From IMG/VR virus record IMGVR_UViG_3300021256_000097: a stretch of DNA of 64,000 nt. One strand, 5' to 3'. This document shows, piece by piece, positions 4,961 through 51,663 of the stretch. The DNA comes from a virus. The position numbers and the translations under genes were made by a program. The first letter of the stretch is position 1. Each line of letters begins with the position of its first letter. A model generated the notes under the pieces. That model was given only the letters and a program-made list of their open reading frames with translations, had not been told where the DNA came from and did no database searches.

Positions 4961-5648
4961 AGATTGTATCATCACCACGCCGCATATCAACACTTATTGA
5001 TGATCCCATCATTTGAGCATTGACATTCTTAGAAAGCTGTCCAAGAATAAATGCGTAGTTTTCCCAACCCTTAAGAAGGCGTTCTACTGTAGAACGTTGG
5101 CCTTCCGCTTTTATTGTTTCCGCTTTAAGTTTAGCAGCTTCCTTTCTGTAGATCTTAAACAATGTTGCATCAATCTCTTTTGATGAAAGCCACTGTGCAG
5201 TTTTTACATCTTTTGTATTATAGGTATTTCTGATTTCCATATACTTATCATAATACCATTCATTATACTTTTCCTTAGCTACTTCAGCATCAAATCGAGC
5301 TTGTTCATACAAAGCTGTAAGAGCAAATAGGGTTGGCTCATAAGTAGAAAGCGCAACATCAAGCTCATAAAGTGTAATATTACCACTATTAAATGATACT
5401 TTACTGTTCATACGCTGAATTTGCTTATCAACATATGCAAGAAGCTCTTCACCCGCCTTAGTAGTTTCACGCTCAATATCAGAATCAGTTTCTGCAAATG
5501 CTGTCCAAGGATTTGGTTCTGGAGCAGCTTGATTTGTAGTTACAGTAGCTGTTTGCATATTATCAAAGTTTATATTTGTAGCTGTTACTGGCTGCTCAAC
5601 CGTAATAGGCGTGCGAGTTGCACGAGTAGCTCTAATTTGTTCACCCAT
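4959..5648 (-). CDS. Hypothetical protein
   Basis: Long ORF with a compatible codon pattern. It belongs to a minus-strand operon. Confidence 0.5.
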   Translation of the reverse strand: MGEQIRATRATRTPITVEQPVTATNINFDNMQTATVTTNQAAPEPNPWTAFAETDSDIERETTKAGEELLAYVDKQIQRMNSKVSFNSGNITLYELDVALSTYEPTLFALTALYEQARFDAEVAKEKYNEWYYDKYMEIRNTYNTKDVKTAQWLSSKEIDATLFKIYRKEAAKLKAETIKAEGQRSTVERLLKGWENYAFILGQLSKNVNAQMMGSSISVDMRRGDDTI

Positions 5649-6132
5649 TTTTTGCCTCGTTATTCATAATACTATTTACTAAATCCAAATATTGGCCTTT
5701 AACGCCATTATACAATGCTTCAGTACCAGAATAAGGATTATCTATCATTCCAAAGCCACCAAGGTCTTTTATTTTATTTACACAAAGTCTGTCACGTTGT
5801 GGCTTTTCTTTTATCTCTGTTAAAGTTTTTCTTTCTCTATCATAGAAGAATGGAACACCCAACTCGCGACAAGCATTGCTTAGCCTATCAGCCTCGTCCT
5901 TACCACAAGTATCTTTTATTTTTTGGTAGAACTCCTCAAAGGCATACCATGTATGATACTCACCCTGGTCAATATATACCTCAACCATTCTAGTTTGTGT
6001 ATTAGGGATAAAAAGCAGGAACATAAACTGTCCCATAGCTTCTTCTGTTCTCTGATATATTTCATCTTGAGCTTCAGCAAACTCTTCTTTTTCTTTATCA
6101 GTCATATAGTAATGGACTCCAAGATGAATCAT
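5641..6132 (-). CDS. Hypothetical protein
   Basis: ORF in the minus-strand operon. It overlaps the neighbouring start and stop codons. Confidence 0.5.
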   Translation of the reverse strand: MIHLGVHYYMTDKEKEEFAEAQDEIYQRTEEAMGQFMFLLFIPNTQTRMVEVYIDQGEYHTWYAFEEFYQKIKDTCGKDEADRLSNACRELGVPFFYDRERKTLTEIKEKPQRDRLCVNKIKDLGGFGMIDNPYSGTEALYNGVKGQYLDLVNSIMNNEAKNG

Positions 6133-9751: not shown

Positions 9752-9817
9752 TCCATAAATTGGGATTCTACAATTGCTAATATATGCTTATCAATTAAAT
9801 TATTGGAGAAGCATAAT

Positions 9818-39834: not shown

Positions 39835-40788
39835 GTGAATAAGCGAATTATTAAATGGACAGCACTTGGTGTTATTGGAATTTTGGTTCTTATAACCGGG
39901 CTTAATTGTTGTTCTGTAATTGATCCTACAGAAGAGGCTGTAACTGTAACATTGGGTTCTCTTGGTAATGATAACATTGGTCAGGGATTGCATTTCAAAG
40001 CGCCTTATGTGCAGACATTCCGCAAGATTGACAAAAACCCTATTGAATATAAGAAGTCAATTCCGCTCGGTGAAAAGGCTCTTATTACTAAAGATGGCCA
40101 GTCACTTGGTGTTGATTTTACTATGACATGGAAATATACTGATGGTTCAGCAGTACTAGTAGCTAAGCGATTCAGTGATAAAAACTCTTTATATAATTTG
40201 ATTTCAAATCCTTGTAAACAGGCGTTTAAGTCAGAAATTGGTAAGCTTGAAGCACTTGAGTTTGTAGGTAAGCAGGATGAAGTAATAAGTAAAGTAATGG
40301 ATCGTGTTACTGCTGAAACGGCCCGTTTGCAGTTGCCTATTGAGATTCTTAATATTGTAATTGAAAATATTAACTGGGACCCTGGTTTTGAGGCTCAGAT
40401 TAAGAAAACTGCTGAGATGCGTGCGCAGGTAGAACAGGCTAATCAGGCTGCTGACCAGGCTGCTGCTATTGCCCAGAAGAAAGTACGTGAAGCCAAAGCT
40501 GATGCTGACGCGGCTCTTGAAAAGAAACGTATGACTGAAGCAGAAGCTGAAGCAGAAGCTAATGCGGAATTGATTAAAGCACAGAAAGCTGCTGATGCAA
40601 AGCGCGTCGAAGCTGATGCTCTTGCCTATTACAATGCAAAAGTTGCGCAGAACTATCAGGTAGAAATTAAGCTTAAAGAACTTGAAATTGAGCTTGAGCG
40701 TGCTAAGAAATGGGATGGACGACAGGTACCTGAATATATTCCATTGACAGCTGCTGGTGGTATTGTAAATCTTCCGGAGAAGAAATAG
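39835..40788 (+). CDS. SPFH/band-7 (HflK/C, stomatin)-like membrane protein
   Basis: N-terminal TM segment, SPFH-like core, and an Ala/Glu-rich coiled coil (AEAEAEAEANAE). Confidence 0.55.
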   Translation: MNKRIIKWTALGVIGILVLITGLNCCSVIDPTEEAVTVTLGSLGNDNIGQGLHFKAPYVQTFRKIDKNPIEYKKSIPLGEKALITKDGQSLGVDFTMTWKYTDGSAVLVAKRFSDKNSLYNLISNPCKQAFKSEIGKLEALEFVGKQDEVISKVMDRVTAETARLQLPIEILNIVIENINWDPGFEAQIKKTAEMRAQVEQANQAADQAAAIAQKKVREAKADADAALEKKRMTEAEAEAEANAELIKAQKAADAKRVEADALAYYNAKVAQNYQVEIKLKELEIELERAKKWDGRQVPEYIPLTAAGGIVNLPEKK

Positions 40789-43674: not shown

Positions 43675-43836
43675 TGGATAAGAAAGACTTTTATAAGGAC
43701 ATGTGGAACCCTAAGCTTGAGCTTATCCTGGTAGAATTGGTAATAAACCTTCTAATAAAGGCTTATGTTGGTACACAGATGGTACTAAAAATATTATGGC
43801 TTCTAGTTGCCCAAGTGGTTTTAGAAAGGGAATGAC
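43675..43836 (+). CDS. Small protein (53 aa), not in the ORF track
   Basis: GGGAG RBS. Confidence 0.25.
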
Positions 43837-43876
43837 GAAAATAATTAAATAAAAATATACTTTACAATAATAAATT

Positions 43877-43886
43877 ACATATTATA
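43877..43886 (+). promoter_or_regulatory. Promoter core ACATATTATA. It starts the transcript of about 420 nt that runs into tRNA-Leu.
   Basis: Core motif. No ORF lies downstream until the tRNA. Confidence 0.55.
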
Positions 43887-44304
43887 ATTGTTAGGTGATA
43901 AACCTAATCGACCTAAGGCGTGGTAGCCTAAATAGTGATGAAGTATAGGATAGCGGTGTGCTTAAGAGCTACGCGACAATTACGTTTCCTATATGGAGCT
44001 ATGGAAGAAAAGCTCAGAGTTTCCTAATTGGGCTCTAGACTTGGACCATACAGACCAAGAGATCCTAACCCTAGAGTTAGGGGATGCAACGGTACGGTTA
44101 TAAACAACGAGAAGCTTCAGAGTGAGCTAATCGGGTCCAGTTTCAAACGTGGGAACATCCGTATTCCGTGAGTTTACACGGACACATTAGAATTGAAGAG
44201 TAGGGTCATACGGGATACCGAAATTCGTATTATTGCTGGTCAGTGAAAAGTTAGAAGCCCTAGCATATGGCGTCTGGCTTGGAGACCGAAATATATGCTA
44301 ATCT
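43887..44304 (+). ncRNA. ORF-free structured leader of about 420 nt, a candidate ncRNA, between the promoter and tRNA-Leu
   Basis: Several hairpins, for example ttaggtgataaacctaa, cttggaccatacagaccaag and ccctagagttaggg. No ORF or RBS. Confidence 0.3.
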
Positions 44305-44339
44305 GCGTGAGTGGCGGAATTGGTAGACGCCCAGGACTT

Positions 44340-45026
44340 TGAAGTCTAGAATGTTTACAAACAATTTGTACTAATTTAATTATGATTAGTAATGAAGAGT
44401 TTATAAGCATTGTAGAAAAATGTCAAACAATGGCACTAGCTGCCAAAAAAGTTGGTATGGCCTATACTTCCTTTATTAGGAAGGCAAAAAAACTTGGTTG
44501 TTATAAACCAAATCAAGGCCATAAAGGTGTTAAAACTGGTCATCCATCAAATTGGATCCGGACAGAAGACATCTTAGCTGGTAAGTACCCACAGTATCAA
44601 ACATATAAGTTAAAAGCTAGACTTATAACTGAGGGGTATTTAGAGGACAAATGTTCTTTATGTGGTTGGGATAAAAAGCCAGAAGGAGCAAGATTTACTC
44701 CTTGTGAGCTTGACCATATAAATGGAAATCCAACGGATCACAGATTTGAGAACTTAAGATTGATTTGTCCTAATTGCCATTCTCTTACTGAGACATATCG
44801 TTTCAGAAGAGGTAAGACAAATGAGTCACAAGGTAGGAAACTCCTTGATGAGAATGAGGCTAATTCGACGAACCCTTAACGATAGTTAAAGCGTTATGGC
44901 AACGACGAGCTAAGCAAAATGTGTAGAGACTATACACCTCGTACCTAAACAGAAATGCATGGTAATGAAATAGTCCAGACCACAAACCTTTTGTTTGATA
45001 AGGGTAATGAAAGTTATGGTGGTAAG
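44340..45026 (+). mobile_element. Group I intron in the tRNA-Leu anticodon loop, carrying an HNH homing endonuclease ORF
   Basis: The 5' exon ends in U and the intron ends in G (ggtaag|aaaa). The IGS aagtc pairs with exon gactt. P7 R/S-like elements tagagacta (about 44925) and aatagtcc (about 44970) are present. The insertion site is the same as in the classic tRNA-Leu(UAA) intron. Confidence 0.7.
44382..44879 (+). CDS. HNH homing endonuclease (intron-encoded)
   Basis: CSLCGW...ELDHINGNPTDHRFENLRLICPNCHS is an HNH motif with zinc cysteines. Confidence 0.85.
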   Translation: MISNEEFISIVEKCQTMALAAKKVGMAYTSFIRKAKKLGCYKPNQGHKGVKTGHPSNWIRTEDILAGKYPQYQTYKLKARLITEGYLEDKCSLCGWDKKPEGARFTPCELDHINGNPTDHRFENLRLICPNCHSLTETYRFRRGKTNESQGRKLLDENEANSTNP

Positions 45027-45165
45027 AAAATCCTGTGCTCGCTAAGGGCGTACGGGTTCAAGTCCCGTCTCGCGCAATGCACAGTAAAGTCTTTTGAAAT
45101 AATAAAGGCCATGGGACACTTAAGCTGTACGCTTTAGCCTGCTTTTCTTTGGTGTAGCCCAAGTC

Positions 45166-45207
45166 GCGGATTGAGGTGAAAGATGGTTCGACTCCATCCG
45201 TTCCGCA
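45166..45207 (+). ncRNA. tRNA-like module with an acceptor-like stem and a T-arm but no D-arm or anticodon arm (tRNA mimic, possibly YrlA-like)
   Basis: gcgga...tccgc stem. T-arm gatgg-ttcgact-ccatc. Only 9 nt separate the 5' stem strand from the T-arm. Confidence 0.3.
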
Positions 45208-45574
45208 TACGTGGCATAGAATTGAGGAGTAAATTGATCCTATGTGCATTTAGTGGATATCCCTACTTGCGCAATAAAAATAGGGGATTTTGAACGATTT
45301 TGTGTCCGCATACGTCGAGGCGACGTCATATTGTAACAGGTATGACAGGCGGTGCAACTCTCGCTATGTATGCATAGTGTTCAGGCATGCCTAACACGAA
45401 TTGAAAATCGCCAGGAGTAATTGACGAAAATTACGCGCGTTAAAGTAGTTGATGAATTATACTGGGAGCCTTAGAAAAACAACTGAGCCGCACTTGGTTG
45501 CTAAGGTATTGGGACTCGTACCAATTGAATATCCTACGATAAAGGCAGGGATAGCCACAACATCCAACCTTTAT

Positions 45575-45659
45575 GTATCAGTGGTCGAGAGGTCGAAGAC
45601 AGCAGACTGTTAATCTGCCGAGCGAAAGCCCACCACAGGTTCGAACCCTGTCTGATACG
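45575..45659 (+). tRNA. tRNA with anticodon GTT (Asn-like) and an atypically long 16-nt variable region. Identity is uncertain.
   Basis: Acceptor gtatcag/ctgatac. Anticodon stem gcaga/tctgc with loop ctGTTaa. T-arm acagg-ttcgaac-cctgt. Confidence 0.5.
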
Positions 45660-46151
45660 CTAAAAATCCAGGATCTAATACCTGGTTAGAAGTGTATTAG
45701 AGACCTAATATGAGCGGATGGTTTTACCAGATGAAACTTGTATTAGAAGGCTATTACTTTACAAATACTGTACGCTTGTGTCAGTCCTTGCGTTAACGAT
45801 GCGCAGGTATAACGGCTGGGAAGGTTCGTAGAAAGCCTAAGCTTAGAGTACTATGCTCAATACCGTAAGTCCGTCGCCTCAAGTTTGATTCTACCTATTA
45901 TATGATAAGGGTCGACTGACAGCCTACGGAAGTTTAGGGATTGATAGTAGGTGACCAATTATACGAGTCGTAATCCCTTTATAAATAACCATTATATGGA
46001 AGAGTCCTTAGGGAATGGCCTACCGAAATGGTAACAATGGGAATTGAAGTACTATTGGGGAGTGAACCGATTATAGGAACATTGTAGTATAGTGGTATTT
46101 ATAAACGATTTTTGTTAGTTATGTTAGTTTTATACTTTATTTGGTAAGCTA

Positions 46152-46161
46152 ACATATTATA
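46152..46161 (+). promoter_or_regulatory. Promoter core ACATATTATA. It drives a transcript of about 260 nt that ends at the terminator at 46393-46424.
   Basis: Core motif with no ORF downstream. Confidence 0.55.
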
Positions 46162-46164
46162 AAT

Positions 46165-46428
46165 ATGAAATTATGCGTATAATATGAAAGTTGAAATTTC
46201 ATAAAATACGCTAATATAAATATAACAGAAAATGCTGTAGGATTAGGTTTACTTAGATTCTATTTTTGGTTTAGAAAAAACAAAGAGCCTATCCGATTTT
46301 TCGCTTTTCTTAATTTTGGAATTATATGTAAGCCGACTCCCTATTACCAAATCGGGACCCCTCCTTGTCGGATTCATATGAGACATAGTTACGGGAAGCA
46401 TGCGAATGCTTCCTTTTTTTTTATTTAT
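46165..46428 (+). ncRNA. Candidate small ncRNA, about 260 nt from promoter to terminator, immediately upstream of the Ro60-like gene (possible Y-RNA-like RNA)
   Basis: The unit is bounded by the promoter and the gggaagcatgcgaatgcttcc+T9 terminator. An internal 13-bp hairpin gcgtataatatgaaa/tttcataaaatacgc is present. No ORF or RBS. Confidence 0.35.
46393..46424 (+). terminator. Intrinsic terminator
   Basis: gggaagcat gcga atgcttcc plus T9. Confidence 0.7.
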
Positions 46429-46471
46429 AAAATTATTTAATAAACTTCAGTTTGAAGTGAGGAGAAATAAA

Positions 46472-47917
46472 GTGAGTAAGGTTAATCAGAAAGCCAGTGT
46501 AGCAGAAGCTAAGAAGGTTTATGTACCGGGCGTTAAGGAAGATGCAAGACGTACTCTTATGACTTGTCTCTTGTGGGAAGATGAATACTATGAAAATGGT
46601 GTTTCAATTGCTGACCGCCTTAGGGGATATGTAAAACGCCTTAGCGAGCAGGATTGTCGTGAATTGTTATTGGAAGCAAAGTTCCAGAACAAGCTTCGCC
46701 ACGCTCCATTATTCTGGGCTGTTCAGATGGCAAAAGAAGGAAAGCTTAAGGCAGACGATGTTGCAAAGATTTGTGACCGTGTAGATACAATGGCTGACCT
46801 TTTGGCTATTTACTTTGATGAAAACCCTCTTTCAGACTCAGAAAAGTCAAAGTGTTATAAAAACGGAAATCGTGTGCACCGTGATAACAAAGCGGTACCA
46901 AAAGCAATTACAAAGGGCCTTCAGAAAGCAATTGAAAACCCAAGATTCGACGAATACGCTTTTGCAAAGTATCGTCTTGAGGATAAAGCAATCAAGACTC
47001 GCGACGTAATTCGTCTTGCACACGTAAAGCCATCAACCCCAGAACGTTCAGCTTTGTATAAGAAAGTACTTGATGGCACACTTGCGACTCCAGATACATG
47101 GGAAGTAGCTATCTCTGCTGCAGGTTCAGACATGAACGCTAAGCGTGACGCTTGGACTCGTTTGCTTTCAGAGAATAAGCTTGGTGTATTGGCATTGCTT
47201 CGTAACCTTAATGGTATGAGCCGTGCAGGTGTTGACCAGGCTAAGATTCGTAAGGCAGTAAAAGCAGCTTCAATTGGTCGTGTACTCCCATTCCAGATTG
47301 TAACTGCTTCAAGACACGCGCCAGAATTGGCAGATGTATTGAACACAAAGTTCATGGAATCTGTTGAAAACGTTGAAAAGCTTGAGGGAGAATCTCTTGT
47401 ACTTGTAGATGTTTCTGGTTCTATGAATGCTCCATTGTCAGCTAAGTCTGATACAAAACGTGTAGACGTAGCTGCTGCTCTTGGAGCTCTTGTAAAGGAA
47501 GTAAGTAAGGGTAGCGTAATCTACGCATTCGACGACAGCCTTAGACCAGTATCAACTGACCTTGCTGGATTGCCACTTGTACGTGAGCTTTCAAGAAATG
47601 GTGGTTGTACTGCAGTAGCAGAGTGTACAGAAAGAGCTATTAAAAACTACAGAAATTCACATGGCGGACGTGATCCAGCTCGTGTTATTGTAGTAACAGA
47701 CGCTCAGGACAACTCTTCTTACAACCGCGGTTGGGGCTGTGAATACGATGTAGCACGTATGCCAAAGGTTCCTTATGGAACTGGTTACATTGTAAATGTT
47801 GGAGCTCAGAAGAATGGCGTTGAATACGCGCTTCACTCTGGCTGGATGACTGTTTACGGATGGTCAGACAATATTGTTAAGTACATTGCAGCTTTGGAAA
47901 ATGAAAGACGCAAGTAA
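46472..47917 (+). CDS. rsr: Ro60/Rsr-like protein (TROVE plus vWA)
   Basis: CLLWEDEYYENG (TROVE-like), ALLRNLNG (Ro60 ALLRNLG signature), and vWA MIDAS LVDVSGSM. GTG start after GAGGAG. Confidence 0.6.
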   Translation: MSKVNQKASVAEAKKVYVPGVKEDARRTLMTCLLWEDEYYENGVSIADRLRGYVKRLSEQDCRELLLEAKFQNKLRHAPLFWAVQMAKEGKLKADDVAKICDRVDTMADLLAIYFDENPLSDSEKSKCYKNGNRVHRDNKAVPKAITKGLQKAIENPRFDEYAFAKYRLEDKAIKTRDVIRLAHVKPSTPERSALYKKVLDGTLATPDTWEVAISAAGSDMNAKRDAWTRLLSENKLGVLALLRNLNGMSRAGVDQAKIRKAVKAASIGRVLPFQIVTASRHAPELADVLNTKFMESVENVEKLEGESLVLVDVSGSMNAPLSAKSDTKRVDVAAALGALVKEVSKGSVIYAFDDSLRPVSTDLAGLPLVRELSRNGGCTAVAECTERAIKNYRNSHGGRDPARVIVVTDAQDNSSYNRGWGCEYDVARMPKVPYGTGYIVNVGAQKNGVEYALHSGWMTVYGWSDNIVKYIAALENERRK

Positions 47918-51297: not shown

Positions 51298-51663
51298 GGG
51301 CCTGACTTTGGAATCGATTGGTATCAGAGTAGTCTATGTATCATGCACAGTGGTTATTGTACCCTAAAAGCAACGTAAGTAATCGACGCACAGAACGAAT
51401 ATGCAATGGCTGCGTAAGCAACCTAGCATCTAGAGACTTCGAGAGCTCTAGCGCTTGAACCAACAGATGTAGGTGGTATGGTTTTAAGTGTGGCTACTAC
51501 CTTCTAGGAAGCAGTGAGAGGCGGAGCGAGAGCTTGTAACTGTAACGACAATACTAGGGCAGAATCCGGTTGCCGGTCCCGAATCGAAAAAAGGCTTAAG
51601 CATGTAGAGAAGTACATATTCAAAAAGGTAAGCAAGACGAGAGTTCGAAACTCTCCAGGTCCA
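51298..51663 (+). ncRNA. ssrA: tmRNA (SsrA), standard one-piece form. The tag reading frame is (D)AQNEYAMAA-stop at 51385/51388-51417.
   Basis: The 5' end GGGCCTGACTTTGGAATCGATTGG matches tmRNA GGGGCTGATTCTGGATTCGACGGG. The conserved TAAGCATGTAG motif is present. The 3' tRNA-like end is gagag-ttcgaaa-ctctc plus acceptor caggtcc, which pairs with the 5' gggcctg. The ORF gca cag aac gaa tat gca atg gct gcg taa is present. Confidence 0.8.

What the first reader, a model, noticed from the sequence alone, without database searches (positions are those of the whole stretch)
46152..47917. Ro60 (Rsr, TROVE+vWA)-like protein with a promoter-to-terminator ncRNA directly upstream: candidate phage Ro/Y-RNA module
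CDS 46472-47917 carries TROVE-like sequences (CLLWEDEYYENG, and ALLRNLNG matching the Ro60 ALLRNLG signature) plus a vWA MIDAS (DVSGSM). This is the domain pair that defines Ro60/Rsr. Immediately upstream on the same strand, a canonical phage promoter (46152) and a strong terminator (46393-46424) bracket about 260 nt with no ORF or RBS and a long imperfect hairpin. Bacterial rsr genes are characteristically adjacent to Y RNAs, which are often tRNA-like. A phage carrying Ro60 plus a cognate ncRNA would be an RNA-surveillance or RNA-decay-modulating accessory module. In hosts, Rsr and Y RNA tether PNPase. The ncRNA unit being a Y-RNA-like partner is conjecture.
Basis: partly seen in the sequence, partly recalled or inferred. 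Interest (0 to 1): 0.8.

Follow-up and report, generated by a model that had tools for sequence, protein, structure and literature searches.

The report
Phage Ro60 gene with Y RNA
A large uncultured phage carries a Ro60-type RNA-binding ring protein and, just upstream, a small structured RNA built like the Ro60-binding part of bacterial Y RNAs: a known kind of module, here in a very divergent form that standard RNA models miss.

Summary
CDS 46472-47917 is a Ro60/Rsr orthologue. It passes the Pfam TROVE cut-off, has a vWA MIDAS motif (DVSGSM), and its AlphaFold model matches only Ro60 structures full length.

The upstream non-coding unit is real, but the coordinates change. The conserved promoter is at 46191-46220, not 46152. 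The conserved RNA core is 46224-46315, followed by a variable hairpin and the terminator at 46393-46423.

The core folds into two helices (P1 with a bulged U, then P2). Covariation supports both: 96% of cells pair, and 12 of 15 pairs show double changes. A covariance model built from it hits every related TROVE locus and gave no hit in 1.08 Mb of unrelated viral DNA.

The layout is P1, bulged U, 2 bp, YGNAG, P2, UUACUU. The same layout flanks the Rfam YrlA hits beside TROVE genes of proteobacterial phages. A descriptor for it hit 126 times on the rsr strand, against 10 on the opposite strand, in 80 bacterial rsr loci.

The window RNA is therefore a short Y RNA without a tRNA-like domain (YrlB-like). 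Its motif is degenerate: GCUGUAG instead of GNCGAAG. Binding and expression are untested.

This is a new member of a known kind. Related copies sit inside phage tRNA arrays and next to the crAss001 TROVE gene.

The parts
46191..46220 (+). Promoter-like element of the RNA: TTGAAA (46191-46196), 18-nt spacer, TATAAA (46215-46220). It includes the recurrent phage motif GCTAATATAA (46210-46219). The predicted start is about 46226-46228.
   Evidence: The element is conserved in alignments A1 and A5. The same GCTAATAT(A/T)(A/T) motif lies before the ribosome-binding sites of genes at 9776, 13862, 22748, 25062 and 52471. The sigma-70 scan did not call it because the -10 ends in A.
46224..46315 (+). 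Conserved core of the Y-like RNA, the proposed Ro60-binding module.
- P1: 46227-46232 plus 46234-46235 pair with 46303-46310.
- Bulged U at 46233.
- 5' junction UGUAG: 46236-46240.
- P2: 46240-46249 pairs with 46286-46294.
- UUACUUAG: 46249-46256.
- Small apical hairpin: UCUA 46259-46262 pairs with UAGA 46272-46275.
- 3' junction GAUUUUUC: 46295-46302.
   Evidence: - RNAalifold recovers P1 and P2 independently.
- Model R1 scores 87.8 bits, E 7e-18, and this is its only significant hit in the window.
- On 18 copies, 96.3% of cells pair and 12 of 15 pairs show double changes, against 44-60% paired in slid controls.
- The descriptor hit has 8 of 8 P1 pairs and a P2 duplex of -9.6 kcal/mol.
46311..46391 (+). 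Variable 3' hairpin domain between the core and the terminator. Its core stem is 46322-46328 paired with 46375-46381.
   Evidence: MFE folds show it. A hairpin sits at this position in all eight TROVE-proximal copies, but neither its sequence nor its length is conserved.
46393..46423 (+). Intrinsic terminator: GGGAAGCAU-GCGA-AUGCUUCCU followed by nine U.
   Evidence: The terminator scan calls it. A stem-loop followed by a U tract sits at the same place in L001, L003, L004, L006, L008, L011 and L014.
46445..46464 (+). Small hairpin (CUUCA 46445-46449 paired with UGAAG 46453-46457) immediately before the Shine-Dalgarno sequence GAGGAG (46459-46464).
   Evidence: It is conserved in alignment A1. 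Relatives carry altered but still complementary arms, read by eye: L008 GUUC/GAAC and L001 ACUU/AAGU. Its role is unknown.
46472..47917 (+). Ro60/Rsr orthologue, 481 aa: a TROVE HEAT-repeat ring followed by a vWA domain. The MIDAS motif DVSGSM is encoded at 47408-47425.
   Evidence: - Pfam TROVE: 40.9 bits against a cut-off of 23.
- 4100 homologues, many named '60 kDa SS-A/Ro ribonucleoprotein' by their sources.
- phmmer against PDB: 9KOP and 9L5Y (phiLo Ro60), E 6.6e-19.
- AlphaFold2 model: pLDDT 84.7.
- Foldseek: 13 Ro60/Rsr structures, E 1e-19 to 4e-10, query-normalised TM 0.57-0.67.

Best explanation
The locus is a phage-encoded Ro60 and Y RNA module.

Proposed transcription (inferred): a phage promoter at 46191-46220 drives an RNA of about 200 nt that ends at the terminator at 46393-46423.

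Structure (supported by covariation): the first 90 nt (46224-46315) form the conserved part. The order is a terminal helix P1 with a bulged U two base pairs from its inner end, an asymmetric internal loop (UGUAG on the 5' side, GAUUUUUC on the 3' side), a second helix P2, then UUACUUAG and a small apical hairpin.

Comparison (shown): this matches the layout of the Ro60-binding end of bacterial Y RNAs. GC+UGUAG sits where those RNAs carry GG+CGAAG, the GNCGAAG motif. UUAC sits where they carry YUAY. The tRNA-like domain of YrlA is replaced by a short hairpin, so the RNA resembles the short YrlB-type Y RNAs.

Mechanism (inferred, not shown): the Ro60 ring encoded just downstream binds this module. 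By analogy with Deinococcus Rsr/Yrn1 and with Thermus phage phiLo Ro60/Yrl, the RNA gates the ring or tethers it to a host exoribonuclease such as PNPase. That would let the phage degrade or triage structured RNAs during infection. The Ro60 mRNA probably arises by read-through of the terminator. The genomic setting (tRNA arrays, an intron-containing tRNA, a tmRNA) suggests that tRNA-class RNAs are the substrates.
For: Protein:
- The Pfam TROVE hit passes the cut-off.
- The nearest solved relative is the phiLo phage Ro60. That protein is reported to bind two upstream phage Y-like RNAs and host PNPase (PMC12135203).
- The predicted fold matches only Ro60/Rsr structures over its full length.

The RNA is real:
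- The upstream 300 nt is conserved across TROVE loci whose proteins are only 52-78% identical.
- RNAalifold finds P1 and P2, with 9 of 15 pairs compensated.
- On 18 copies, 8 of them not used to build the model, 96.3% of cells pair and 12 of 15 pairs show double changes. Slid controls give 44-60%.
- Model R1 gave 24 hits at E<1e-5 across the 17 related TROVE loci (119 kb), covering every one that carries upstream sequence. It gave none in 1.08 Mb of unrelated viral DNA.
- Of 23 metagenome pattern hits, R1 confirmed 17. TROVE lies directly downstream in four of them.

Link to Y RNAs:
- Rfam YrlA finds RNAs upstream of TROVE in Xanthomonas, Brevundimonas and Caulobacter phages. Their flanks show the same P1, U, 2 bp, YGUAG, P2, UU(N)CUUC layout.
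- A fixed descriptor of that layout gives 12 same-strand hits within 1 kb of TROVE in 55 kb from six other phages.
- It gives 126 hits on the rsr strand against 10 on the opposite strand in 80 bacterial rsr loci. The long hits enclose Rfam YrlA hits.
- It gives no hit with 8 of 8 P1 pairs in the 1.08-Mb negative set.
- The Chen 2014 criteria of same strand and within 4 kb of Ro60 are met (PMC4201824).
Against: - There are no expression data and no binding data.
- The literal GNCGAAN0-1G motif is absent. The window has GCUGUAG, which matches 4 of the 6 specified bases. No GNCGAANG occurs on the + strand of the RNA region.
- Rfam Y_RNA and YrlA give no hit at E<=10.
- Model R2, built only from bacterial short Y RNAs, scores the window RNA 9.3 bits, E=3, rank 2. 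This is not significant, although the alignment is in full register.
- The descriptor was designed after seeing the window RNA, so only its hits elsewhere count as evidence.
- The RNA has a 3' extension of about 110 nt, so P1 is not formed by the transcript ends.
- A strong terminator lies between the RNA and the gene it is supposed to serve.
- Copies of the same RNA lie inside tRNA arrays, away from TROVE.
Confidence: 0.75

Rival explanations
1. The element is only a cis-acting leader or attenuator of the TROVE mRNA. A structured 5' leader with an intrinsic terminator would set read-through into the Ro60 gene, perhaps by feedback from the protein. It would have no trans-acting role as a stable RNA.
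For: - The order is promoter, structured RNA, terminator, then about 50 nt to the ribosome-binding site.
- No convincing promoter lies between the terminator and the CDS.
- The arrangement is kept in eight loci.
Against: - The same RNA core occurs far from any TROVE start. Some copies sit flush between tRNA genes, for example L014 8382-8463 and L008 7588-7669. Tandem copies also occur.
- In crAss-like phages it lies downstream of the TROVE gene.
- The segment between the core and the terminator is not conserved, and by eye I found no conserved alternative (anti-terminator) pairing.
- In L012 the homologous motif sits in a tRNA-like RNA with no terminator before the CDS.
Confidence: 0.08
2. The RNA family belongs to the phage tRNA arrays and has nothing to do with Ro60. 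It could be a processing or punctuation element, or a decoy for host tRNA-targeting nucleases. Its position next to TROVE would then reflect only that the TROVE gene is embedded in the same tRNA islands.
For: - Many copies lie between tRNA genes.
- Some long variants enclose a tRNA-like cloverleaf or a T arm. ARAGORN and Rfam even call one of them tRNA-Gly (L008 10507-10577).
- Six metagenome contigs carry the RNA followed by homing-endonuclease or other genes rather than by TROVE, before the contig ends.
Against: - The same outer architecture is found next to rsr/TROVE, on the same strand, in unrelated genomes without tRNA arrays. These are 61 of 80 bacterial rsr loci and the 43-kb Xanthomonas phage.
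- Every TROVE locus of this clade that carries upstream sequence has a copy nearby on the same strand.
- Known Y RNAs are themselves tRNA mimics (PMC4201824), so a tRNA association does not count against a Y RNA identity.
Confidence: 0.1
3. There is no functional RNA. The conservation would reflect only a DNA-level promoter and terminator in front of the TROVE gene.
For: The promoter-like and terminator sequences are among the conserved blocks.
Against: - Compensatory double changes occur in 12 of 15 base pairs across 18 copies. Pairing collapses when partners are slid by one column.
- Copies also exist without the promoter or the terminator, inside tRNA arrays.
Confidence: 0.02

Closest known systems
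Short bacterial Y RNAs (YrlB of Salmonella Typhimurium and Mycobacterium smegmatis; Chen et al. 2014, PMC4201824)
   Same: - Encoded beside the Ro60 orthologue on the same strand.
- A helix with a bulge, an internal loop carrying the Ro60-contact motif, and a second helix.
- No tRNA-like domain.
- Short forms of about 68 nt with this exact layout lie upstream of rsr in Acidobacteriota.
   Different: - The motif is GC+UGUAG rather than GG+CGAAG.
- The RNA is 29% G+C.
- It has its own promoter and terminator and a 3' hairpin extension of about 110 nt.
- It is not detectable with bacterial models.
YrlA (Rfam RF02553), the tRNA-mimicking Y RNA
   Same: The outer module is shared: P1, bulged U, 2 bp, YGNAG, P2, YUAY. 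It also lies close to Ro60.
   Different: - The window RNA has no T arm, D arm or closed acceptor stem.
- The Rfam model gives no hit at E<=10.
- Some paralogues in related phages do carry T-arm-like hairpins.
Thermus phage phiLo Ro60 with Yrl1 and Yrl2 (PMC12135203; PDB 9KOP, 9L5Y)
   Same: - A phage-encoded Ro60 with phage-encoded Y-like RNAs upstream of the gene.
- It is the closest solved structure to the window protein.
- It is reported to assemble with host PNPase.
   Different: - The proteins are only 22-30% identical.
- The phiLo region gave no hit with R1 or with the descriptor.
- The Yrls are described as carrying a CGAA bulge.
Deinococcus radiodurans Rsr, Yrn1 and PNPase (RYPER), and metazoan Ro60 with Y RNAs
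   Same: A ring protein with a vWA domain, and a Y RNA with a conserved bulged lower stem that binds the outside of the ring. These supply the proposed tether-and-gate mechanism.
   Different: - The link rests on distant sequence and structure similarity (Foldseek E about 1e-13, 15-18% identity).
- The effector of the phage RNP is unknown.
- The resemblance to hY1 (GGCUGG-U-CC-GAAG...) is recalled from memory and was not tested.

Membership tests
Ro60 / Rsr (TROVE + vWA ring protein) | TROVE (HEAT-repeat) domain | tested here: met
   Pfam PF05731 scores 40.9 bits against a cut-off of 23, E 2e-10. Precomputed TROVE hits are on record for nearly all listed homologues.
Ro60 / Rsr (TROVE + vWA ring protein) | C-terminal vWA domain with a MIDAS motif (DxSxS) | tested here: met
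   - DVSGSM lies at residues 313-318. D313, S315 and S317 are invariant in 36 homologues.
- The region aligns with DVSGSM of phiLo Ro60.
- Pfam vWA_Ro60 itself is below its cut-off (17.8 against 27.7).
- The model shows a Rossmann-like beta/alpha pattern for residues 304-462.
Ro60 / Rsr (TROVE + vWA ring protein) | Overall fold like solved Ro60 rings | tested here: met
   The AlphaFold2 model has pLDDT 84.7 and pTM 0.78. The top 13 Foldseek PDB hits are all Ro60/Rsr over the full length, E 9.5e-20 to 4.4e-10, query-normalised TM 0.57-0.67.
Ro60 / Rsr (TROVE + vWA ring protein) | Binds Y RNA or misfolded RNA | not testable with these tools
   This needs EMSA, RIP or a structure.
Bacterial/phage Y RNA (Yrl family, Chen et al. 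2014) | Encoded within 4 kb of the Ro60 orthologue on the same strand | tested here: met
   The core at 46224-46315 lies 157 nt upstream of the CDS on the same strand.
Bacterial/phage Y RNA (Yrl family, Chen et al. 2014) | GNCGAAN0-1G motif near the 5' end | tested here: inconclusive
   - The literal pattern is absent from the RNA.
- At the homologous position (the two inner P1 base pairs plus the 5' junction) the window has GCUGUAG, where rsr-linked bacterial RNAs have GGCGAAG.
- Bacterial copies also vary: GGUGAAG, GGCGCAG, GGCGUAG, GGUGUAG.
Bacterial/phage Y RNA (Yrl family, Chen et al. 2014) | Helix closing the module, with a bulge and an internal loop | tested here: met
   Covariation supports P1, with bulged U46233, and P2. 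The same geometry is seen in 126 rsr-strand hits in bacteria and in alignment A6 (96.5% paired, 13 of 15 pairs covary).
Bacterial/phage Y RNA (Yrl family, Chen et al. 2014) | YUAY after the second helix | tested here: met
   UUAC at 46249-46252 directly follows the P2 5' strand. The equivalent is UUAC, UUCC or UUUC in the bacterial and phage copies. The mapping to Chen's YUAY is my inference from the Rfam consensus.
YrlA (Rfam RF02553) | tRNA-like domain (T arm, D arm, closed acceptor stem) | tested here: not met
   - The apical region at 46257-46285 holds only a 4-bp hairpin.
- ARAGORN and Rfam find no tRNA-like element there.
- The RNA is therefore not filed as YrlA.
YrlA (Rfam RF02553) / Y_RNA (RF00019) | Match to the curated covariance model | tested here: not met
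   There is no hit at E<=10 in 43800-46500. As a positive control, the same scan finds YrlA-like RNAs (30-56 bits) beside TROVE or rsr in six other loci sets.
Transcription-attenuating leader / riboswitch | Conserved alternative pairing between the sensor and the 5' arm of the terminator | tested here: not met
   The region between the core and the terminator is variable in sequence and length. By eye I found only a 4-5 nt AUGCU/AGCAU complementarity, and it is not kept in L004 or L008. This check was not exhaustive.

The most novel reading that the evidence does not exclude
The window RNA would be one member of a large, undescribed family of phage Y RNAs.

The family would span big tRNA-rich gut and rumen phages and also crAss-like phages. 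In crAss001 there are two short copies and two tRNA-scaffold copies directly downstream of the early TROVE gene gp96.

The family would include circularly permuted forms. In these, the Ro60-binding module replaces the anticodon arm of an otherwise normal tRNA with an open acceptor end. It would also include copies processed out of tRNA arrays.

If so, phage Ro60 RNPs would be dedicated to the phage's own tRNA economy. Possible roles are quality control, protection from or decoying of host tRNA-targeting defences, or a link to tmRNA rescue. This would differ from a generic aid to RNA decay.
Probability: 0.3. Interest if true: 0.7.

Novelty: new member of a known kind. Interest (0 to 1): 0.5.

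Why it matters
Ro60 and Y RNA particles are well studied in animals because of autoimmunity, and in a few bacteria. In phages they are known only from sequence surveys and from one biochemical study, on Thermus phage phiLo.

This locus shows that the module also exists in very AT-rich, uncultured large phages, in a form that the Rfam YrlA and Y_RNA models did not detect.

The comparison gives a simple structural signature: P1, bulged U, 2 bp, YGNAG, P2, YUAY. That signature found candidate Y RNAs next to rsr/TROVE in Acidobacteriota, in proteobacterial phages and in crAss-like phages.

It also points to a testable system. crAss001 is culturable, its TROVE gene is expressed early, and candidate Y RNAs lie directly downstream. 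The role of a phage Ro60 RNP, and its link to phage tRNA arrays, could be studied there.

Tried and rejected
- DNA search of the region against GenBank phages found no match.
- A single-protein scan of IMG/VR found no relatives.
All were chance matches: R1 hit none of them. I reused them as a 1.08-Mb negative control.
- I first read ACAG/CUGU (46225-46238) as a hairpin. I dropped it because it is not conserved and conflicts with the covarying P1.
- I first read GCTTTTCTT as a repeated promoter-like word (9 matches against 2 expected). At this site it is the 3' strand of P1.
- I considered the CUCCUU in the variable hairpin as an anti-Shine-Dalgarno element. It is not conserved in all loci and I did not pursue it.
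- I looked for an anti-terminator pairing and found none convincing.
- I asked whether tRNA-Asn 45575-45660, which has an odd 13-nt variable-arm insert and GUCGAAG in its D loop, could be the tRNA-like half of a YrlA. It has an intact anticodon arm, no YrlA hit and no descriptor hit, so I left it as a tRNA.
- The bacterial-only covariance model R2 against the window gave E=3, which is inconclusive.
- Rfam at gathering threshold finds no YrlA even in bacterial rsr loci. Absence of a gathering-level hit is therefore uninformative.
Full report
**What is at the coordinates.**
- The ORF ending at 47917 starts at GTG 46472, eight bases after GAGGAG. Homologues start at the aligned ATG.
- The terminator at 46393-46414, followed by nine Ts, is real.
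It lacks a -35, the scan did not call it, and it lies in sequence that does not align among relatives.
- The conserved element is TTGAAA 46191-46196, an 18-nt spacer, then TATAAA 46215-46220. It is embedded in GCTAATATAA 46210-46219.
- That decamer is nearly invariant upstream of the RNA in 11 loci. It recurs 15-35 nt before the ribosome-binding sites of at least five other genes in the window, so it looks like this phage's own promoter motif.
- The transcription unit is therefore about 46226-46423, roughly 200 nt.
- The window is phage DNA. It encodes a DnaB-like helicase, a clamp-loader ATPase and an RIIB-like protein. It also carries two tRNAs and a tmRNA.

**The protein.**
- Pfam TROVE scores 40.9 bits against a cut-off of 23.
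- The homologue search returned 4100 hits, many named '60 kDa SS-A/Ro ribonucleoprotein' by their sources.
- In GenBank phages, 94 records encode a relative, none more than 38% identical. They include crAss-like, Brevundimonas, Caulobacter, Xanthomonas, Rhizobium, Streptomyces, Gordonia and Mycobacterium phages.
- The best solved relative by sequence is the Ro60 of Thermus phage phiLo, E 6.6e-19.
- An AlphaFold2 model (pLDDT 84.7) matches 13 Ro60/Rsr structures over the full length and nothing else comparably.
- D313, S315 and S317 of the MIDAS motif are invariant in 36 homologues.
- The protein is a Ro60 orthologue.

**The RNA is a real, structured, conserved element.**
- I fetched 17 contigs encoding proteins 43-78% identical to the window protein.
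- The 300 nt upstream of the gene is conserved across them. Positions 46203-46256 are still 83% identical in loci whose proteins are only 52% identical.
- On ten copies, RNAalifold predicts two helices. P1 pairs AGAAAA-U-GC with GC-UUUUCU. P2 pairs GGAU-U-AGGUU with AGCCU-AUCC.
- A covariance model (R1) finds a single significant site in the window, 46224-46315, at 87.8 bits and E 7e-18.
- R1 gave 24 hits at E<1e-5 across the 17 related loci, covering every one that carries upstream sequence. Copies not used for training are among them.
- R1 gave no hit in 1.08 Mb of unrelated viral contigs.
- On 18 aligned copies, 96.3% of cells form standard pairs and 12 of 15 pairs show changes on both sides. 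Sliding the partners by one to three columns drops pairing to 44-60%. This alignment was fitted to the model, which favours the structure. The independent RNAalifold result agrees with it.
- Three single-stranded blocks are conserved: UGUAG between P1 and P2, UUACUUAG right after the P2 5' strand, and a U-rich 3' junction.
- Downstream of the core, every TROVE-proximal copy has a hairpin of variable sequence and then an intrinsic terminator.

**Where else the RNA occurs.**
- Related phages often carry several copies. Some are tandem copies upstream of TROVE, in L004, L006 and L014.
- Other copies fill the gaps between tRNA genes in large tRNA arrays, for example L014 8382-8463 and L008 7588-7669.
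- A specific pattern scan of metagenome contigs gave 23 loci, and R1 confirmed 17 of them.
- Four of the 17 have TROVE directly downstream on the same strand. Others lie in tRNA arrays. Others are followed by homing-endonuclease or other genes before the contig ends.
- Some long variants carry T-arm-like hairpins in the apical region. One encloses a cloverleaf that ARAGORN calls tRNA-Gly.

**Link to known Y RNAs.**
- Chen et al. 2014 define YrlA-type RNAs by three features: proximity to Ro60 on the same strand, a GNCGAAN0-1G motif near the 5' end, and a tRNA-like domain. Short YrlB RNAs lack that domain (PMC4201824).
- Rfam holds YrlA as RF02553. In an E-value scan it finds two or three YrlA-like RNAs upstream of TROVE in Caulobacter phage CcrColossus, Brevundimonas phage Kikimora and a Xanthomonas phage, at 30-56 bits. 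It finds nothing in the window.
- Reading the flanks of those hits shows an outer architecture identical to the window RNA. Two examples:
  - Xanthomonas phage: GCUGG-U-GG-UGUAG-UGGGCAG-UUACUUCG ... CUGCCCA-CGUCUGUU-CC-CCAGC
  - Window: AGAAAA-U-GC-UGUAG-GAUUAGGU-UUACUUAG ... AGCCUAUCC-GAUUUUUC-GC-UUUUCU
- I wrote a fixed descriptor for this layout. It requires a 6+2-bp P1 with a bulged U, YGNAR, 6-10 nt, UU(N)C(U/A)(U/C)(C/A)(A/G), and a P2 duplex of -5 kcal/mol or better.
- In the negative set, which is itself enriched for the sequence motif, it gives 17 hits in 1.08 Mb, none with a perfect P1.
- In 55 kb from six other TROVE phages it gives 12 distinct hits. All are within 1 kb of TROVE on its strand, and eight have a perfect P1.
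- I then applied it unchanged to 80 bacterial rsr loci fetched afterwards, mostly Acidobacteriota. It gives 126 hits on the rsr strand, nearly all upstream of rsr and with a perfect P1, in 61 loci. The opposite strand gives 10.
- The long hits, about 130 nt, enclose sub-threshold Rfam YrlA hits. The short hits, about 68 nt, are YrlB-like and covary strongly.
- The bacterial consensus is GGCCGG-U-GG-CGAAG-P2-UUNCUUCG. It places Chen's GNCGAAG at the two inner P1 base pairs plus the junction, and YUAY right after P2.
- The window therefore has GCUGUAG in place of GGCGAAG, and UUAC as the YUAY. GGUGUAG variants also occur in bacteria.
- A model built only from the bacterial short forms aligns the window RNA in full register but scores only 9.3 bits, E=3, rank 2. 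That independent test is inconclusive. A likely reason is that a GC-rich model is being scored against a target of 29% G+C.

**crAss-like phages.**
- In crAss001 and cr106_1 the gene-free stretch directly downstream of TROVE holds two short copies with the same layout: UGUUGUA-U-AG-UGUAU-AAUAGAC-UUACUUCA and so on.
- R1 scores the crAss001 copies 25.8 and 19.5 bits. The descriptor finds perfect P1 helices in both phages.
- The same stretch also holds tRNA-like RNAs in which the module sits in place of the anticodon arm. The order there is P2', junction, P1', loop, P1 with bulged U, UGUAG, P2, then UUACUU. MFE folds agree with this.
- The same permuted form lies directly upstream of TROVE in L012.
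- This amounts to a circular permutation of the YrlA topology. It rests on folding and inspection only.
- The two crAss papers I searched mention the TROVE protein as an early 'possible ribonucleoprotein component' and describe no Y RNA (PMC8375218, PMC10136315).

**How it most likely works.**
- Shown: a Ro60 orthologue; an adjacent, conserved, covarying RNA; and an architecture shared with rsr/TROVE-linked Y RNAs.
- Inferred:
  - The RNA is transcribed from 46191-46220 and ends at 46423.
  - The protein binds the P1-junction-P2 module.
  - The RNP gates the ring or tethers it to a host exoribonuclease, as reported for Deinococcus Rsr/Yrn1/PNPase and for phiLo Ro60/Yrl/PNPase.
  - The TROVE mRNA arises by terminator read-through.
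- The tRNA-rich setting suggests tRNA-class substrates, but this is speculation.

**Rivals.**
- A purely cis-acting leader is unlikely. The same core occurs in tRNA arrays, in tandem, and downstream of TROVE in crAss-like phages, and I saw no conserved anti-terminator pairing.
- A tRNA-array RNA unrelated to Ro60 is unlikely. The same architecture accompanies rsr/TROVE in genomes without such arrays.
- Conservation at the DNA level only is excluded by the covariation.

**Verdict.**
- It is a new, strongly divergent member of the known phage/bacterial Ro60 and Y RNA kind: a short Y RNA without a tRNA-like domain.
- Interest is moderate. It rises if the wider family, namely the crAss-like copies, the permuted tRNA-scaffold forms and the array-embedded copies, is confirmed experimentally.

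Noticed in passing
window 44305-45076: tRNA-Leu(UAA) is split by a 687-nt group I intron at 44340-45026, inserted between U34 and A35 of the anticodon. That is the site I recall for the cyanobacterial/plastid tRNA-Leu intron. The intron carries an HNH endonuclease ORF (44382-44879) and a sub-threshold Rfam Intron_gpI hit (44777-44999, 27.5 bits). Joining 44305-44339 to 45027-45076 gives an 87-nt tRNA-Leu(taa) in ARAGORN. Relative L003 has the same tRNA uninterrupted.
   Followed up: yes
window 45077-45570: About 500 nt with no ORF lie between tRNA-Leu and tRNA-Asn. They fall within a 544-nt BLAST match (45027-45570) that is 93.6% identical to L003, although the TROVE proteins are only 75% identical. 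The stretch contains a T-arm-like GGTTCGACTCC and a repeated TCCGCATACGT. No Rfam, R1, R2 or descriptor hit; possibly another structured RNA.
   Followed up: partly
window 45575-45660: tRNA-Asn(GUU) carries an unusual 13-nt insert (GAGCGAAAGCCCA) in the variable region, making it 86 nt long. It scores well as a tRNA (56.6 bits).
   Followed up: no
window 45661-46190 and 43900-44300: Further ORF-free stretches, which by eye look richer in G+C, flank the tRNA genes. They have no homologue in the related loci and no RNA-family hit. Their function is unknown.
   Followed up: no
window 51298-51663: A phage-encoded tmRNA with tag peptide DAQNEYAMAA lies 3.4 kb downstream of the Ro60 gene. The crAss-like phage cr106_1 and Brevundimonas phage Kikimora also have a tmRNA within 2-4 kb of their TROVE gene.
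   Followed up: partly
window 9776, 13862, 22748, 25062, 46210, 52471 (+ strand): The motif GCTAATAT(A/T)(A/T) recurs 15-35 nt upstream of ribosome-binding sites. It is likely this phage's promoter -10 element, and it has no conserved -35.
   Followed up: partly
L162 (crAss001, NC_049977 complement) 5406-5980; L164 (cr106_1) 5322-5655; L012 3842-3975: Candidate Y-like RNAs lie next to the TROVE gene of crAss-like phages. There are two short copies. There are also tRNA-like RNAs (normal acceptor, D and T arms) whose anticodon arm is replaced by the P2/junction/P1 module, an apparent circular permutation of YrlA.
   Followed up: partly
L008 10484-10608, L011 2609-2732, L016 8984-9139: Long variants of the RNA inside tRNA arrays enclose a normal-order tRNA-like cloverleaf or a T arm. 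In these, the UUACUU motif appears to form the 5' strand of the acceptor stem. This topology differs from YrlA.
   Followed up: partly
L167-L246 (bacterial rsr loci): Acidobacteriota rsr genes are preceded by one to four Y RNA candidates on the same strand, as short forms of about 68 nt and tRNA-like forms of about 130 nt. All are below Rfam's YrlA gathering score, so current annotation would miss them.
   Followed up: partly
window 39835-40788; L003 350-1303; L012 2760-3683; crAss001 gp91: A gene for an SPFH/Band-7-like protein of about 317 aa recurs a few kb from the TROVE gene in unrelated phages. The window ORF was matched only to a PHROG labelled 'lipoprotein'; Band_7 was not tested for it.
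   Followed up: no
L001 6755-7495, L003 11251-11991, L140 112-792, L155 2513-3193: GIY-YIG or NUMOD3 homing-endonuclease genes are scattered through these tRNA/Ro60 islands, along with the HNH gene in the window intron. This suggests heavy mobile-element traffic in the region.
   Followed up: no
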